A stretch of DNA of 64,000 nucleotides from Escherichia coli (GTDB lineage Bacteria; Pseudomonadota; Gammaproteobacteria; Enterobacterales; Enterobacteriaceae). The notes beneath the pieces were generated by a model. That model did not search any database, was not told the origin of the DNA, and saw only the letters and a program-made list of their open reading frames with translations. This document shows positions 3,550 through 62,154 of the stretch, piece after piece; position 1 is the stretch's first letter, and the number at the start of each line of letters is the position of its first letter. The position numbers and the translations under genes are program-made. The stretch lies in NCBI RefSeq assembly GCF_036507355.1, contig NZ_AP027877.1; one strand, 5' to 3'.

Positions 3550-5285
<1,736 letters not shown>

Positions 5286-5297
5286 AGTCACATAATC

Positions 5298-6344
<1,047 letters not shown>

Positions 6345-6455
6345 TCCTCTCTTTATCTGCTATACCTGGTAGTGTCCTTTCCTCAAGGTTAATGATAAAA
6401 AATGTGGCACACAGGCGGTGCCTTTTATTTTTACTGAAGTTCACAGGAGGTTTAT

Positions 6456-7223
6456 GTGTTTAATTCTGACAACCTGAGACTCGACGGAAAATGCGCCATC
6501 ATCACAGGTGCGGGTGCAGGTATTGGTAAAGAAATCGCCATTACATTCGCGACAGCTGGCGCATCTGTGGTGGTCAGTGATATTAACGCCGACGCAGCTA
6601 ACCATGTTGTAGACGAAATTCAACAACTGGGTGGTCAGGCATTTGCCTGCCGTTGTGATATTACTTCCGAACAGGAACTCTCTGCACTGGCAGACTTTGC
6701 TATCAGTAAGCTGGGTAAAGTTGATATTCTGGTTAACAACGCCGGTGGCGGTGGACCTAAACCGTTTGATATGCCAATGGCGGATTTTCGCCGTGCTTAT
6801 GAACTGAATGTGTTTTCTTTTTTCCATCTGTCACAACTTGTTGCGCCAGAAATGGAAAAAAATGGCGGTGGCGTTATTCTGACCATCACTTCTATGGCGG
6901 CAGAAAATAAAAATATAAACATGACTTCCTATGCATCATCTAAAGCTGCGGCCAGTCATCTGGTCAGAAATATGGCGTTTGACCTGGGTGAAAAAAATAT
7001 TCGGGTAAATGGCATTGCGCCGGGGGCAATATTAACCGATGCCCTGAAATCCGTTATTACACCAGAAATTGAACAAAAAATGTTACAGCACACGCCGATC
7101 AGACGTCTGGGCCAACCGCAAGATATTGCTAACGCAGCTCTGTTCCTTTGCTCGCCTGCAGCCAGCTGGGTAAGCGGACAAATTCTCACCGTCTCCGGTG
7201 GTGGGGTACAGGAGCTCAATTAA
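6456..7223 (+). CDS. hdhA: 7-alpha-hydroxysteroid dehydrogenase (short-chain dehydrogenase/reductase family)
   Basis: 255-aa ORF with SDR glycine motif TGAGAGIG and catalytic YxxxK (YASSK). Confidence 0.9.
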   Translation: MFNSDNLRLDGKCAIITGAGAGIGKEIAITFATAGASVVVSDINADAANHVVDEIQQLGGQAFACRCDITSEQELSALADFAISKLGKVDILVNNAGGGGPKPFDMPMADFRRAYELNVFSFFHLSQLVAPEMEKNGGGVILTITSMAAENKNINMTSYASSKAAASHLVRNMAFDLGEKNIRVNGIAPGAILTDALKSVITPEIEQKMLQHTPIRRLGQPQDIANAALFLCSPAASWVSGQILTVSGGGVQELN

Positions 7224-50404: not shown

Positions 50405-51424
50405 ATGAAAAGCATATTAATTGAAAAACCGAATCAACTGGCGATTGTCGAACGTGAAATACCCACCCCGTCAGCGGGTGAAGTACGAGTAAAAGTGAAA
50501 CTTGCCGGAATTTGTGGTTCAGATAGCCATATTTATCGTGGGCATAATCCTTTTGCGAAATATCCGCGCGTCATTGGACATGAATTCTTTGGCGTCATTG
50601 ATGCGGTGGGTGAAGGTGTGGAAAGCGCCAGAGTCGGTGAACGTGTTGCTGTCGATCCGGTGGTCAGCTGTGGTCATTGCTATCCGTGCTCTATAGGTAA
50701 GCCGAACGTTTGTACGACACTCGCTGTATTAGGTGTGCACGTTGACGGTGGTTTCAGTGAATATGCTGTGGTTCCGGCAAAAAATGCGTGGAAAATTCCT
50801 GAAGCAGTGGCCGATCAATATGCGGTAATGATCGAACCTTTTACCATTGCGGCTAACGTAACCGGTCATGGTCAACCGACTGAAAATGATACCGTTCTGG
50901 TTTACGGTGCCGGTCCAATCGGCCTGACGATCGTTCAGGTATTAAAAGGCGTCTATAACGTTAAAAATGTGATTGTTGCCGATCGCATTGATGAACGACT
51001 GGAAAAAGCGAAAGAGAGCGGGGCTGACTGGGTGATTAATAACAGCCAGACACCGCTTGGCGAGATTTTCGCTGAAAAAGGCATCAAGCCGACATTAATT
51101 ATTGATGCGGCTTGTCATCCTTCTATCCTGAAAGAGGCCGTAACGCTGGCTTCTCCAGCGGCACGTATTGTATTGATGGGGTTCTCCAGTGAACCGTCTG
51201 AAGTGATTCAGCAAGGGATTACCGGAAAAGAACTCTCTATTTTCTCTTCACGCTTAAATGCAAATAAATTTCCGGTCGTTATCGACTGGTTAAGTAAAGG
51301 GTTAATTAAACCAGAAAAATTAATTAGCCATACGTTTGATGTCCAGCATGTTGCTGATGCCATTAGTTTATTTGAACAGGATCAAAAACATTGCTGCAAA
51401 GTCTTACTCACTTTTTCTGAATAA
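50405..51424 (+). CDS. rspB: zinc-dependent alcohol-dehydrogenase-family protein RspB
   Basis: 339 aa from MKSILIEKPN; zinc-binding GHEFFG and Rossmann GAGPIG motifs. Confidence 0.92.
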   Translation: MKSILIEKPNQLAIVEREIPTPSAGEVRVKVKLAGICGSDSHIYRGHNPFAKYPRVIGHEFFGVIDAVGEGVESARVGERVAVDPVVSCGHCYPCSIGKPNVCTTLAVLGVHVDGGFSEYAVVPAKNAWKIPEAVADQYAVMIEPFTIAANVTGHGQPTENDTVLVYGAGPIGLTIVQVLKGVYNVKNVIVADRIDERLEKAKESGADWVINNSQTPLGEIFAEKGIKPTLIIDAACHPSILKEAVTLASPAARIVLMGFSSEPSEVIQQGITGKELSIFSSRLNANKFPVVIDWLSKGLIKPEKLISHTFDVQHVADAISLFEQDQKHCCKVLLTFSE

Positions 51425-60669: not shown

Positions 60670-60969
60670 AAAAATTCCTTAATACTGATAACTTGGCGCA
60701 CTATACACACGTTCCTGAAGAAAGCTATAGTTTTTTGATGGGGTTGAAGATGGCTGGATGTCTAAAATAAACATTGCTTCATATGTTCAACTATGCGTTA
60801 ATGATTGCGTCGGTTTGAAGAACAGACGATATACGAAGTAGTTTACTAAAGCAGTTCTCATTTCAGGTGTTATTCACTTATTCCTTCTTTGAGTCTCTCC
60901 AATTAAGTACGAAGTCGTTTCTGTTATGCAAACCATTTATGCCGAAAGGCTCAAGTTAAGGAATGTAGA

Positions 60970-61185
60970 ATGTCAAATAAAATGACTGGTTTAGTAAAAT
61001 GGTTTAACGCTGATAAAGGTTTCGGCTTTATTTCTCCTGTTGATGGTAGTAAAGATGTGTTTGTGCATTTTTCTGCGATTCAGAATGATAATTATCGAAC
61101 CTTATTTGAAGGTCAAAAGGTTACCTTCTCTATAGAGAGTGGTGCTAAAGGTCCTGCAGCAGCAAATGTCATCATTACTGATTAA
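60970..61185 (+). CDS. cspB: cold shock protein CspB
   Basis: 71-aa ORF with RNP1-like KGFGFI motif; long upstream leader. Confidence 0.92.
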
Positions 61186-61466
61186 AATTCATCGCTCGTC
61201 TGTATACGATAACGAAGAAGGCTGATGCCTGAGTAGAGATACGGACAGAGTAGTGAATATTGGATCTCTTTAATAAAAAGTAAGGAGGTCCAATACATGA
61301 AACAATGGCTAGCATATTTGGCAAAATCTTAATCAGGAAAAGTATGCTAACCATTGTGGTGAAGTGCAGGTTTGCTGCATGAATAGTTTTACAGCAGAAG
61401 CTAACTGCTGGCATGGCAAAACAAAGTGCGTAAGTGGATGACTCCCACAAAAAGCACCACAATCTC

Positions 61467-61490
61467 AAACCCGCTCAGGCGGGTTTTTTA
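61467..61490 (+). terminator. intrinsic terminator downstream of cspB
   Basis: aaacccgc-tcag-gcgggttt followed by a T-run. Confidence 0.6.
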
Positions 61491-61548
61491 TTATCTGCTT
61501 TAAATATATTATTAAAATATAAAAAATACTTGTTACTAATAAAATCAA

Positions 61549-61770
61549 TCAGGCTACAGCTTTAAGATTTGTCTGGAATACTTTGTTGCAATGAGGGCAG
61601 ATCAAAAGGGCACCTTTTTGTACTCTTGAAAAACTGTGTTCTGACTCTTGGGTGCAGTTTGGGCAGGAACATTTAACGAGATAATTACGGCGTGATTTTG
61701 AGTTTTTACGTTCTGACATAGGCTTTTCCTGTATAAATGGCCGTATACAGTACACTAAATATGAAAACAT
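61549..61770 (-). CDS. small zinc-ribbon-like prophage ORF
   Basis: 73-aa ORF with two CxxC pairs (CSCPNC ... CPHC); function unknown. Confidence 0.4.
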   Translation of the reverse strand: MFSYLVYCIRPFIQEKPMSERKNSKSRRNYLVKCSCPNCTQESEHSFSRVQKGALLICPHCNKVFQTNLKAVA

Positions 61771-61938
61771 TTCTCGTATTATTATTTTATATATGACTTT
61801 CTTTCAAAATAATTACCCACATTTTTAATGTGTATGTTTTTTTAGCGCCGTTGAGAACAACGTGTGCTGTCAAAACTACCCCGTAGACTCCGATCTTTTC
61901 AAACATATTGCACCATCCGTGTACATCGGGGTGAGGAT

Positions 61939-62154
61939 ATGAAATCAATGGATAAGTTAACAACAGGTGTTGCATATGGCACATCGGCGGGTAATGCTGG
62001 TTTCTGGGCATTGCAGTTACTCGATAAAGTAACTCCGTCACAGTGGGCTGCAATCGGTGTGCTGGGTAGCCTGGTTTTTGGCCTGCTGACGTATCTGACA
62101 AATCTTTATTTCAAGATTAAAGAAGACAGGCGTAAGGCTGCGAGAGGAGAGTAA
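61939..62154 (+). CDS. essQ: phage 21 S-type pinholin with dual-start motif
   Basis: 71 aa from [18 protein letters not shown]...; close to phage 21 S21 in sequence; two closely spaced Met codons (MKSMDK) typical of holin/antiholin. Confidence 0.85.

What the first reader, a model, noticed from the sequence alone, without database searches (positions are those of the whole stretch)
61549..61770. Small zinc-ribbon ORF antisense to the late region, between cspB and the holin
A 73-aa ORF with CxxC...CxxC sits on the opposite strand from the surrounding late genes and follows a terminator hairpin. It could be a prophage cargo gene or a small nucleic-acid-binding regulator.
Basis: seen in the sequence. 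Interest (0 to 1): 0.25.

Follow-up and report, generated by a model that had tools for sequence, protein, structure and literature searches.

The report
ynfU: known small zinc-ribbon gene
The flagged ORF is ynfU, an already annotated and experimentally detected 56-amino-acid zinc-ribbon protein gene of the E. coli Qin prophage. It is an ordinary finding, although its function is still unknown and it travels with cold-shock genes in many enterobacteria.

Summary
The 73-codon ORF is present at 61549..61770 (-), with its CxxC...CxxC motif. It is ynfU (b4776) of the E. coli Qin prophage.

- **Identity:** the DNA matches K-12 MG1655. RefSeq annotates 'putative zinc-binding protein YnfU'. Pfam PF23499 scores 6e-31 and NCBIfam NF038384 scores 2e-22.
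- **Real boundaries:** the gene is 56 aa (61549..61719). The 17 extra N-terminal codons are promoter/leader DNA.
- **Real gene:** dN/dS is about 0.05-0.2 across genera. Published Ribo-RET, tagged-protein blots and PIRT-seq detected the protein.
partly right. It is a prophage cargo gene (moron) in the Q-holin slot, antisense to the late genes. It is not related to YdfK/YnaE, and nucleic-acid binding is unproven.

New context found here:
- The family is confined to Enterobacteriaceae and is mostly chromosomal, not prophage-borne.
- In 45 of 61 species loci a cold-shock-domain gene lies within 700 nt, often with ynfN-like and ymcF-like small genes.
- A fixed-spacing upstream leader of about 65 nt is conserved in nearly every locus, including a 42%-identical paralogue.

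Function remains unknown. My best guess is a basic zinc-ribbon protein that binds RNA, the ribosome or a partner protein within a stress/cold-shock gene island.

Side finding: an unannotated, covariation-supported structured RNA lies in the cspB 3' region (61305..61466, +).

The parts
61549..61719 (-). ynfU coding sequence (56 aa plus TGA stop): MSERKNSKSRRNYLVKCSCPNCTQESEHSFSRVQKGALLICPHCNKVFQTNLKAVA
   Evidence: RefSeq annotation of the identical MG1655 sequence. Pfam PF23499 at 106.4 bits against a cutoff of 27, and NCBIfam NF038384 at 78.3 bits against 36, both starting at this Met. Family alignment conserved only from this Met. dN/dS 0.05-0.2.
61720..61770 (-). This is non-coding 5' leader/promoter DNA, not protein.
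   Evidence: Extension not conserved as protein. Indels of 1-2 nt among species in this stretch. The upstream ATG (61770..61768) is absent in some E. coli prophage variants. It has no usable SD. It lies at or upstream of both candidate transcription starts.
61727..61730 (-). Shine-Dalgarno core AGGA, 7 nt upstream of the ATG at 61719..61717. Part of the conserved TCAGGA block.
   Evidence: Read directly from the sequence. CAGG is invariant or nearly invariant in 47 leaders.
61747..61755 (-). Conserved GTGTAnnGT block (here GTGTACTGT). TAnnGT at 61752..61747 is the candidate -10 hexamer (P2).
   Evidence: T, A and the final GT are invariant in 47 diverse leaders, with fixed spacing to an upstream CAAGCTAT block and an A-rich tract. 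It is the only match in the 64-kb window. No consensus RNA fold, which argues for a DNA-level signal. The promoter assignment is an inference.
61778..61807 (-). Alternative sigma-70-like promoter P1: TTGAAA, 18 nt, AATAAT.
   Evidence: Consensus scan, 10 of 12 matches. This is only a consensus match, and the -35 is not conserved in other genera.
61467..61496 (.). Intrinsic terminator hairpin plus T-run between the convergent cspB and ynfU transcripts. Probably bidirectional.
   Evidence: + strand: -12.8 kcal/mol, z -4.7, followed by UUUUUUAUUAU. - strand: the same stem inside a -20.1 kcal/mol structure, with a weaker U-tract.
61305..61466 (+). Conserved structured RNA element in the cspB 3' region. 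Neighbour of ynfU, belongs to the csp transcript, not in Rfam 15.
   Evidence: Alignment A5. 88-90% of cells paired against 27-56% for slid controls, and 30-31 compensatory cells against 10.9 +/- 3.3 in shuffles. Covariance model R1 scores 156.7 bits here. Always 80-131 nt downstream of a csp gene on the same strand in 30 of 30 further viral loci. No Rfam match.
60809..61201 (+). cspB mRNA (cspA-type thermoregulator 5' UTR plus CDS 60970..61185), the convergent partner gene of ynfU.
   Evidence: Rfam RF01766 at 158.8 bits. RefSeq cspB.
61939..62154 (+). Holin gene essQ (annotated essD by PGAP), divergent from ynfU across a 219-nt spacer. First gene of the lysis cassette.

Best explanation
The feature is ynfU (b4776), a real, autonomously expressed gene for a 56-aa, strongly basic, four-cysteine zinc-ribbon protein.

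Shown:
- Identity with K-12 ynfU and membership of the YnfU family.
- Purifying selection on the 56-aa frame.
- A good Shine-Dalgarno sequence.
- A conserved upstream leader of about 65 nt that moves with the gene.
- A terminator hairpin shared with the convergent cspB.
- Published detection of the protein from the chromosome at 37 C.

In the Qin prophage it is a moron. It is a self-contained cassette (cspF, cspB, 3' RNA element, terminator, ynfU) inserted between the Q antiterminator and the holin. It is transcribed from its own promoter against the late-operon direction, so it is made in the lysogen independently of phage late transcription.

Across Enterobacteriaceae the gene is mostly chromosomal and sits in small-gene islands with cold-shock-domain genes, ynfN-like and ymcF-like genes.

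Inferred mechanism: YnfU folds around one Zn ion held by C19, C22, C41 and C44. It would use its invariant SEHSF strand and basic N-terminal tail to bind RNA, the ribosome or a partner protein, as an accessory factor of the Csp-centred stress (cold or long-term stationary phase) response.

Confidence by part: identity and gene model about 0.97, moron status about 0.8, stress-island linkage about 0.8, RNA/ribosome-binding mechanism about 0.3.
For: Identity:
- 701 nt identical to MG1655 except one base in essQ. RefSeq product name. Pfam and NCBIfam hits far above cutoff.

Translation:
- Weaver et al. (bioRxiv 10.1101/511675) found it by Ribo-RET. YnfU-SPA was the most abundant of their new proteins.
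- PIRT-seq re-detected it (PMC12350097).

Selection:
- dN/dS 0.05-0.2; synonymous sites are saturated between genera while the proteins stay 60-75% identical.

Start site:
- Alignment A2 and both HMMs start at MSERK. Leader indels are not multiples of 3.

Fold:
- AlphaFold gives a small beta-ribbon plus short helix, mean pLDDT 71.6.
- pI 9.6.

Moron status:
- The same Q-cspF-cspB-ynfU-holin order occurs in 80 IMG/VR loci and in viable phages.
- Klebsiella phage ST13-OXA48phi12.4 has a 59%-identical copy antisense just upstream of an unrelated holin.

Stress-island linkage:
- A csp gene lies within 700 nt in 45 of 61 species-level loci, in four different orientations.
- A YnfN-like gene is that close in 15 loci and a YmcF-like gene in 11.
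- Only 5 of 61 loci have Qin-type Q, holin or lysozyme genes within 5 kb.
- The neighbours cspB, cspF, cspI, ynfN, ydfK and ynaE are co-upregulated in published data (PMC7406224). YnfR, next to cspI, is cold-induced (PMC6001520).
Against: - No experiment links YnfU to cold shock, RNA or ribosomes.
- It is well expressed at 37 C, so it is not a strictly cold-induced protein.
- It lacks a cspA-type 5' UTR.
- In 16 of 61 species loci no csp gene is nearby (Enterobacter, Franconibacter and Kosakonia sites).
- The csp linkage may largely reflect one ancestral cassette rather than repeated selection.
- Structure and profile searches give only generic, non-significant zinc-ribbon matches.
- A few family members lack one Cys ligand.
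- The promoter is not mapped, and two candidates disagree.
Confidence: 0.7

Rival explanations
1. The gene product is the 73-aa protein as delimited by the first reader, starting at the ATG at 61770.
For: The ORF is open from 61770. The phage HannyBb record annotates the 222-nt form (CDS 3450..3671 of L002). Several database entries carry N-terminal extensions that look vaguely similar (VYG..RP..I).
Against: - RefSeq and both curated HMMs start at MSERK.
- Ribo-RET initiation mapping gave 56 aa.
- There is no SD before 61770.
- The ATG is missing in some E. coli variants that keep an intact 56-aa CDS.
- 1-2 nt indels in this stretch between species destroy the frame.
- The apparent similarity of the extensions is explained by a conserved non-coding leader.
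Confidence: 0.03
2. ynfU, or its transcription, is a control element of the phage lysis cassette. Either antisense transcription from the ynfU promoter collides with read-through or late transcription heading into the holin, or YnfU protein modulates holin/lysis or Q function.
For: It is divergent from the holin across about 220 nt in Qin-like prophages. It is also adjacent and antisense to an unrelated holin in a Klebsiella phage, and next to an EssQ-like holin without csp in Enterobacter sp. EA-1. It lies on the path of Q-modified RNA polymerase.
Against: Only 5 of 61 species loci have Qin-type Q, holin or lysozyme genes within 5 kb, and only 3 have a holin within 700 nt. The protein is under strong purifying selection in purely chromosomal, phage-free sites. 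The Q-holin gap is the generic moron slot of lambdoid phages (established knowledge; stx genes sit there).
Confidence: 0.08
3. YnfU is a lysogenic-conversion cargo protein acting against other phages (superinfection exclusion or defence).
For: It is a small moron expressed from a repressed prophage. Many such genes are defence factors (general knowledge).
Against: No PADLOC model matches. There are no defence-type neighbours. Most copies sit in chromosomal stress-gene islands rather than prophages or defence islands.
Confidence: 0.07
4. YnfU is a DNA-binding transcription regulator or nucleoid-associated zinc-finger protein, rather than an RNA, ribosome or protein binder.
For: Basic composition and a zinc ribbon. 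There are weak sub-threshold similarities to transcription-factor zinc ribbons such as Elf1, TFIIE-like and SprT.
Against: There is no helix-turn-helix or other DNA-reading element in 56 aa. No conserved operator-like repeats were seen. The neighbours are RNA chaperones. All similarities are non-significant.
Confidence: 0.12
5. The ORF is a chance or decaying open frame with no function.
For: ORF length is not unusual for this AT-rich spacer. The Qin prophage is defective. A few homologues have lost a Cys ligand.
Against: Curated family hits, dN/dS well below 1 over saturated synonymous divergence, a conserved leader, and protein detected by three methods in the literature.
Confidence: 0.01

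Closest known systems
YnfU of E. coli K-12 (b4776; Pfam PF23499; NCBIfam NF038384 'YnfU family zinc-binding protein')
   Same: Identical protein and DNA, same locus between cspB and essQ in the Qin prophage. Two CPxC knuckles, as described by Weaver et al..
   Different: Function is unknown in the literature too.
Lambdoid-phage morons in the Q-to-holin slot (for example stx genes of Stx phages; lambda bor and lom as the general moron concept)
   Same: An extra gene cassette between the late-gene activator and the lysis genes, with promoter-like and terminator elements of its own, expressed in the lysogen.
   Different: ynfU points against the late transcription direction, and the family is mainly chromosomal outside phages. 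Moron status is a description of context, not a protein family.
YdfK/YnaE (PF27475), YnfN, and YmcF-like/'YnfQ' (PF23641) small proteins of the Qin, Rac and cspG-type cold-shock clusters
   Same: Small proteins of unknown function found in the same gene islands next to csp genes. YnaE is directly upstream of ynfU in Lelliottia. YnfN-like and YmcF-like genes are upstream in many genera. YmcF-like proteins also carry CxxC pairs.
   Different: No detectable sequence homology to YnfU. Cold or stress induction is documented for several of them but not for YnfU.
PhnA/YjdM N-terminal zinc ribbon (PF08274; PA0128, PDB 2akl)
   Same: Rubredoxin-knuckle zinc ribbon of similar size. It is the best non-self Pfam hit (21.6 bits) and a weak PDB profile hit. 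Weaver et al. noted the same resemblance.
   Different: Below the Pfam gathering score (30.8). YnfU has no PhnA C-terminal domain.
zf-DNL proteins Tim15/Zim17/Hep1 (PF05180; PDB 2e2z), Hsp70 escort factors
   Same: Best solved-structure profile hit (E = 0.011), with a shared C-x2-C ... S-x-H ... KG ... CPxC pattern.
   Different: Not significant. Pfam score is 12.6 against a cutoff of 27. The defining D-N-L motif after the second knuckle is absent and the C-terminus is not conserved.
Small ribosome-bound zinc-ribbon proteins (archaeal HVO_2753-like factors, eL42/L44e, eS27)

Membership tests
YnfU family (PF23499 / NF038384) | Profile-HMM score above the curated cutoff | tested here: met
   Pfam 106.4 bits against 27 (E 6.4e-31). 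NCBIfam 78.3 bits against 36 (E 2.4e-22)..
YnfU family (PF23499 / NF038384) | Two CPxC zinc knuckles about 18 residues apart, with the conserved core RRNYLVKCxCPxC...SEHSFSRVQKG...CPxC | tested here: met
   Alignment A2: invariant P20, C22, S26-F30, K35, P42, C44; nearly invariant C17, C19, C41.
YnfU family (PF23499 / NF038384) | Translated product of about 56 aa starting at MSERK | not testable with these tools
   Supported by the literature (Ribo-RET and SPA blot; PIRT-seq) and by conservation and SD position.
YnfU family (PF23499 / NF038384) | Binds zinc | not testable with these tools
   Only inferred from four Cys ligands and the predicted ribbon fold.
YdfK/YnaE cold-shock-induced prophage proteins (PF27475) | Sequence homology to YnaE/YdfK | tested here: not met
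   hhalign of the YnfU profile against Lelliottia YnaE gives probability 0.1%. No PF27475 hit for YnfU.
PhnA/YjdM zinc ribbon (PF08274) | Score at or above the gathering cutoff of 30.8 bits | tested here: not met
   21.6 bits, E 2.2e-4. PDB 2akl has profile E 0.55.
zf-DNL (Tim15/Zim17/Hep1, PF05180) | Score at or above 27 bits, and a D-N-L motif after the second CxxC | tested here: not met
   12.6 bits. The C-terminal region is variable and has no DNL motif.
Lambdoid-phage moron | Extra gene between conserved phage modules (the Q-to-holin slot), present in some relatives and absent in others | tested here: met
   Only 8 of 50,697 phage records carry it.
Lambdoid-phage moron | Own promoter and terminator, expressed from the repressed prophage | tested here: inconclusive
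   Promoter-like sites and a conserved leader and a shared terminator are present. The TSS is not mapped. Expression in the K-12 lysogen is known from the literature.
Cold-shock regulon / csp gene island | Physical linkage to cold-shock-domain genes | tested here: met
   A csp gene lies within 700 nt in 45 of 61 species loci. This is far above the roughly 0.3% expected for about 9 csp genes per genome (my estimate; the figure of nine csp genes is).
Cold-shock regulon / csp gene island | cspA-type long 5' UTR thermoregulator | tested here: not met
   RF01766 matches only cspB and cspI in the window. The ynfU leader has no consensus structure.
Cold-shock regulon / csp gene island | Induction on temperature downshift | not testable with these tools
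   No published data were found for ynfU.
Known anti-phage defence systems (PADLOC-DB 2.0) | Match to any defence-protein model | tested here: not met
   0 families at E <= 1.

The most novel reading that the evidence does not exclude
YnfU is a dedicated partner of the Csp RNA-chaperone system. It would be a basic zinc-ribbon protein that binds RNA or the ribosome under cold or long-term-stationary stress. It would form a three-part mobile stress module together with a cspB-type gene and the hitherto undescribed structured RNA in that gene's 3' region. The module would be chromosomal in most Enterobacteriaceae and captured as a moron by Qin-like phages. The convergent layout might couple the two transcripts through shared or overlapping 3' ends.
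Probability: 0.2. Interest if true: 0.55.

Novelty: already known. Interest (0 to 1): 0.2.

Why it matters
The finding adds nothing to the catalogue. ynfU has been named, annotated and shown to be translated since 2019.

It matters modestly for three reasons:
- YnfU is among the best-expressed E. coli small proteins that still has no function.
- The comparative context found here gives a concrete and cheap hypothesis to test: a role in the cold or stationary-phase stress response alongside Csp proteins. That context is mostly chromosomal copies, tight linkage to csp, ynfN-like and ymcF-like genes, and a conserved promoter/leader.
- The neighbouring csp 3' structured RNA, absent from Rfam, may be the more original lead from this locus.

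Tried and rejected
- **Remote homology for function.** I tried Pfam, NCBIfam, PHROGs, PADLOC, a PDB profile search and a profile search of 1.84 billion representatives. These returned only the YnfU family itself (43 representatives, all small or mis-called proteins) plus sub-threshold generic zinc ribbons.
- **Conserved RNA structure in the ynfU leader.** RNAalifold found none, and the E. coli leader folds no better than shuffles. A riboswitch- or thermometer-like leader is rejected for now.
- **Experimental TSS or expression tables.** The Thomason 2015 paper, the mBio version and the supplements are not held. The promoter choice stays open. Low-resolution genomic-SELEX peaks for sigma-H and sigma-E holoenzymes in the 'essQ/cspB' spacer were noted but not relied on.
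- **The 73-aa form.** Rejected (see rivals).
- **A 20-codon ORF (61381..) inside the RNA element.** Its start codon is absent in Superficieibacter and Yokenella, so it is treated as non-coding.
- **Weak Rfam Trp_leader hit at 61408..61492.** E = 0.64. It is attributed to the terminator hairpin and dismissed.

Full report
**1. Observation**

The window holds an ATG-started 73-codon ORF at 61549..61770 on the - strand. It carries CPNC and CPHC motifs 18 residues apart.

It lies between cspB (60970..61185, +) and the holin gene (61939..62154, +). It is followed, in + strand reading order, by a strong hairpin. The hairpin spans 61467..61486, has an 8-bp stem of -12.8 kcal/mol (z = -4.7) and a T-run.

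So the description is accurate. ORF length alone is not remarkable. In 17.5% of shuffles of the 753-nt AT-rich spacer an ORF of at least 73 codons appears.

**2. Identity**

A 701-nt stretch around the ORF matches 1,660 of 5,426 complete E. coli genomes. It is identical to K-12 MG1655 except for one synonymous base in the holin, at 61974.

RefSeq annotates 'ynfU: putative zinc-binding protein YnfU' here as a 171-nt CDS, which is window 61549..61719. Pfam PF23499 (YnfU, 106.4 bits, cutoff 27) and NCBIfam NF038384 (78.3 bits, cutoff 36) both match, starting at residue 18 of the 73-aa ORF.

The literature supports translation:
- Weaver et al. found ynfU by ribosome profiling of stalled initiation complexes and confirmed it by chromosomal SPA tagging. 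They found it the most abundant of their new small proteins and noted two CPxC zinc knuckles and a moderate match to PA0128 (bioRxiv 10.1101/511675).
- PIRT-seq re-detected it (PMC12350097).
- Later papers still list the function as unknown.

**3. Gene model**

The 56-aa start is the right one, for these reasons:
- AGGA lies 7 nt upstream of the ATG at 61719. The ATG at 61770 has no usable SD.
- Homologues are conserved only from MSERK onward.
- The upstream 51 nt show 1-2-nt indels between species.
- The upstream ATG is missing in some E. coli prophage variants.

**4. A real, constrained gene**

Across 12 diverged representatives (E. coli, Klebsiella, Kosakonia, Salmonella, Franconibacter, Enterobacter, Kluyvera, Lelliottia and two phages), dN/dS is 0.05-0.2 wherever dS is measurable. 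Synonymous sites are otherwise saturated, while the proteins remain 60-75% identical.

**5. The protein**

YnfU is 6.4 kDa with pI 9.6, 10 K+R against 3 D+E, and five Cys.

Invariant or nearly invariant residues are R4, K5, R11, N12, L14, V15, K16, C17, C19, P20, C22, S26-E27-H28-S29-F30, R32, Q34, K35, G36, L39, C41, P42, C44 and F48.

The AlphaFold model (mean pLDDT 71.6) is a small ribbon of four short strands and one short helix, with a disordered basic N-terminus.

Nothing specific emerges from structure or profile comparison:
- Foldseek PDB best E is 0.27, to small archaeal ribosome-bound zinc-finger proteins.
- BFVD has no hit at E <= 0.001.
- The PDB profile search is best for Tim15 (zf-DNL, E 0.011), then eL42 and PhnA-like PA0128.
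- An exhaustive profile search of 1.84 billion representatives finds only 43 proteins, so the family is small.
- There is no PADLOC hit and no significant PHROG hit.

**6. Context in the window and in phages**

The order is quuQ (Q antiterminator), cspF (-), cspB (+), ynfU (-), holin, ydfR, lysozyme, Rz-like gene, cspI.

The same block occurs in all 80 IMG/VR loci retrieved. It also occurs in viable phages HannyBb, 2H10, Tritos, PhiR42_1 and PhiR63_1, so it is not a decay artefact of the defective Qin prophage.

A 59%-identical copy lies antisense just upstream of an unrelated holin in Klebsiella phage ST13-OXA48phi12.4. A 63%-identical copy lies next to cspB- and cspF-like genes near the integrase of phage PHB10.

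From established knowledge of lambdoid phages, the Q-to-holin gap is the classic moron slot. ynfU fits this as a cargo gene made in the lysogen and oriented against late transcription.

**7. The family is mostly not prophage-borne**

Exact-protein look-ups and a one-genome-per-species scan (62 loci; all named taxa are Enterobacteriaceae, apart from a few MAG bins with other labels) place ynfU mainly between housekeeping genes.

A tblastn panel gives the following:
- A cold-shock-domain gene lies within 700 nt in 45 of 61 loci. It is convergent downstream in 30, divergent upstream in 11, co-directional downstream in 10, and co-directional upstream in 4.
- A YnfN homologue is that close in 15 loci (51% identical to K-12 ynfN).
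- A YmcF-like gene (PF23641) is that close in 11 loci.
- GnsB and HSP20 genes appear occasionally in the flanks. YnaE is the upstream neighbour in Lelliottia.
- Qin-type Q, holin or lysozyme genes lie within 5 kb in only 5 loci.

With about nine csp genes per genome, chance adjacency would be well under 1% (my estimate).

These neighbours are known to be co-regulated under stress. cspB, cspF, cspI, ynfN, ydfK and ynaE rise together in long-term stationary phase (PMC7406224). YnfR, next to cspI, is cold-induced (PMC6001520). 'ynfQ' is listed as cold-shock induced (PMC11228462).

No comparable data exist for ynfU, and it is well expressed at 37 C.

**8. A conserved leader**

Upstream of the ATG, 47 diverse sequences share gap-free, fixed-spacing blocks. 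This set includes a 42%-identical paralogue found in some prophages (L079). The blocks, in order, are:
- an A-rich tract (AAATAAAA);
- CAAGCTAT;
- 14 variable nt;
- GTGTAnnGT, with T, A and GT invariant;
- CC;
- TCAGGA;
- 7-9 nt;
- ATG.

RNAalifold finds no structure. I read TAnnGT (window 61752..61747, -) as a likely -10 element with an UP-like A-tract. This is an inference. The consensus scan instead picks TTGAAA-18-AATAAT (61807..61778).

Either way, the 73-aa ATG is not in a translatable position.

**9. Mechanism**

Shown: this is a translated, selected, autonomously signalled small zinc-ribbon gene. It is a moron in Qin and is linked to csp islands.

Inferred: there is one structural Zn ion. 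The invariant SEHSF strand and basic tail would form a binding surface for RNA, the ribosome or a partner protein, within the Csp-centred stress response (about 0.3).

The rivals are a lysis or late-operon control element, phage defence, a DNA-binding regulator, the 73-aa form, and a chance ORF. They are weighed in the rival list. None is favoured by the mostly chromosomal distribution.

**10. Side finding**

The spacer between cspB and the terminator (61305..61466, +) is a conserved structured RNA.

- **Discovery:** blastn and alignment across Kluyvera, Kosakonia, Enterobacter, Superficieibacter, Pluralibacter, Yokenella, Citrobacter and phages revealed five helices.
- **Pairing support:** 88-90% of cells pair, against 27-56% for slid controls.
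- **Covariation support:** 30-31 cells show compensatory changes, against 10.9 +/- 3.3 in shuffles (0 of 500).
- **Strand:** abundant G-U pairs fix the strand as csp-sense.
- **Possible switch:** two alternative pairings of the repeated GCAG/CUGC segments score similarly.
- **Novelty:** Rfam 15 has no matching family. Only the cspA thermoregulator matches, and it ends just before the element.
- **Distribution:** covariance model R1 finds it in 22 of 77 ynfU loci. It also finds it in 30 further viral loci, always 80-131 nt downstream of a csp gene on the same strand.
- **Independence from ynfU:** in phage Cyrano and locus L170 the element follows a csp gene with no ynfU present.

It therefore belongs to the csp transcript, not to ynfU.

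**11. Verdict**

The finding is real but already known. Interest is low for the finding itself. The csp linkage, the conserved leader and the neighbouring RNA element have modest added value.

Noticed in passing
window 61305..61466 (+); also L160 2470..2616, L147 5183..5333 (-), L004 3683..3833 (-): A conserved RNA element of about 160 nt with five covariation-supported helices, directly downstream of cspB-type cold-shock genes and upstream of their terminator. It has no Rfam 15 family. Two alternative pairings of repeated GCAG/CUGC segments suggest a possible switch. It is found after csp genes even where ynfU is absent (phage Cyrano, L170).
   Followed up: yes
window 61289..61333 (+): An 11-codon mini-ORF (MKQWLAYLAKS) with a perfect Shine-Dalgarno sequence (TAAGGAGGT, 6 nt, ATG at 61298) in the cspB 3' region. 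It overlaps the 5' arm of the first helix of the RNA element. The peptide varies among E. coli prophages (MKQWPAYLAKS, ...AIT), and other genera lack it, so the SD-like sequence may serve the RNA rather than a peptide.
   Followed up: partly
window 61974: A single A (GCA) where MG1655 has C (GCC, Ala, synonymous) in the holin gene. MG1655 and the other 24 best-matching E. coli records listed are all at 99.9% identity over 61300..62000.
   Followed up: no
L079 1020..1193 and L076 (IMG/VR prophage contigs): A distant YnfU paralogue (57 aa, 42% identity, PF23499 E 8e-15) about 3 kb from the regular ynfU, beyond the lysozyme gene. It keeps the same conserved upstream leader blocks.
   Followed up: partly
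L160 2131..2345 (Escherichia phage Cyrano OV696614, record about 50565..50781): An unannotated cspB-like cold-shock gene with a cspA-like leader, the 3' RNA element and a terminator. It sits in the gap between hicB and dnaE of a 108-kb phage encoding a T4 gp32-like SSB, UvsY and a DnaE polymerase.
   Followed up: partly
L002 3450..3671 and 4085..6846 (phage HannyBb PP925841): The deposited annotation calls ynfU as the 73-aa form. It also covers the cspB/cspF region with about 20 tiny 'hypothetical protein' ORFs, whereas tblastn finds intact cspB and cspF there.
   Followed up: no
P0006, P0016, P0041, L073 (family members): Some YnfU homologues have lost one predicted zinc ligand: C41Y in a cluster of 190 sequences, plus C41R and C19R. 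These may be decaying alleles or tolerated variants.
   Followed up: no
E. coli records H1-H5 (for example NZ_CM176584, NZ_CP063515), region homologous to window 61300..62000: In several strains an IS1A or IS200C element is inserted within this cspB-ynfU-holin stretch.
   Followed up: no
window about 61476 and about 61618 (converted from U00096.2 positions 1639072 and 1638930): Published genomic SELEX reported sigma-H and sigma-E RNA polymerase holoenzyme binding peaks in the 'essQ/cspB' spacer, before ynfU was annotated (PMC5493296). The resolution is low and the coordinate conversion is mine.
   Followed up: no
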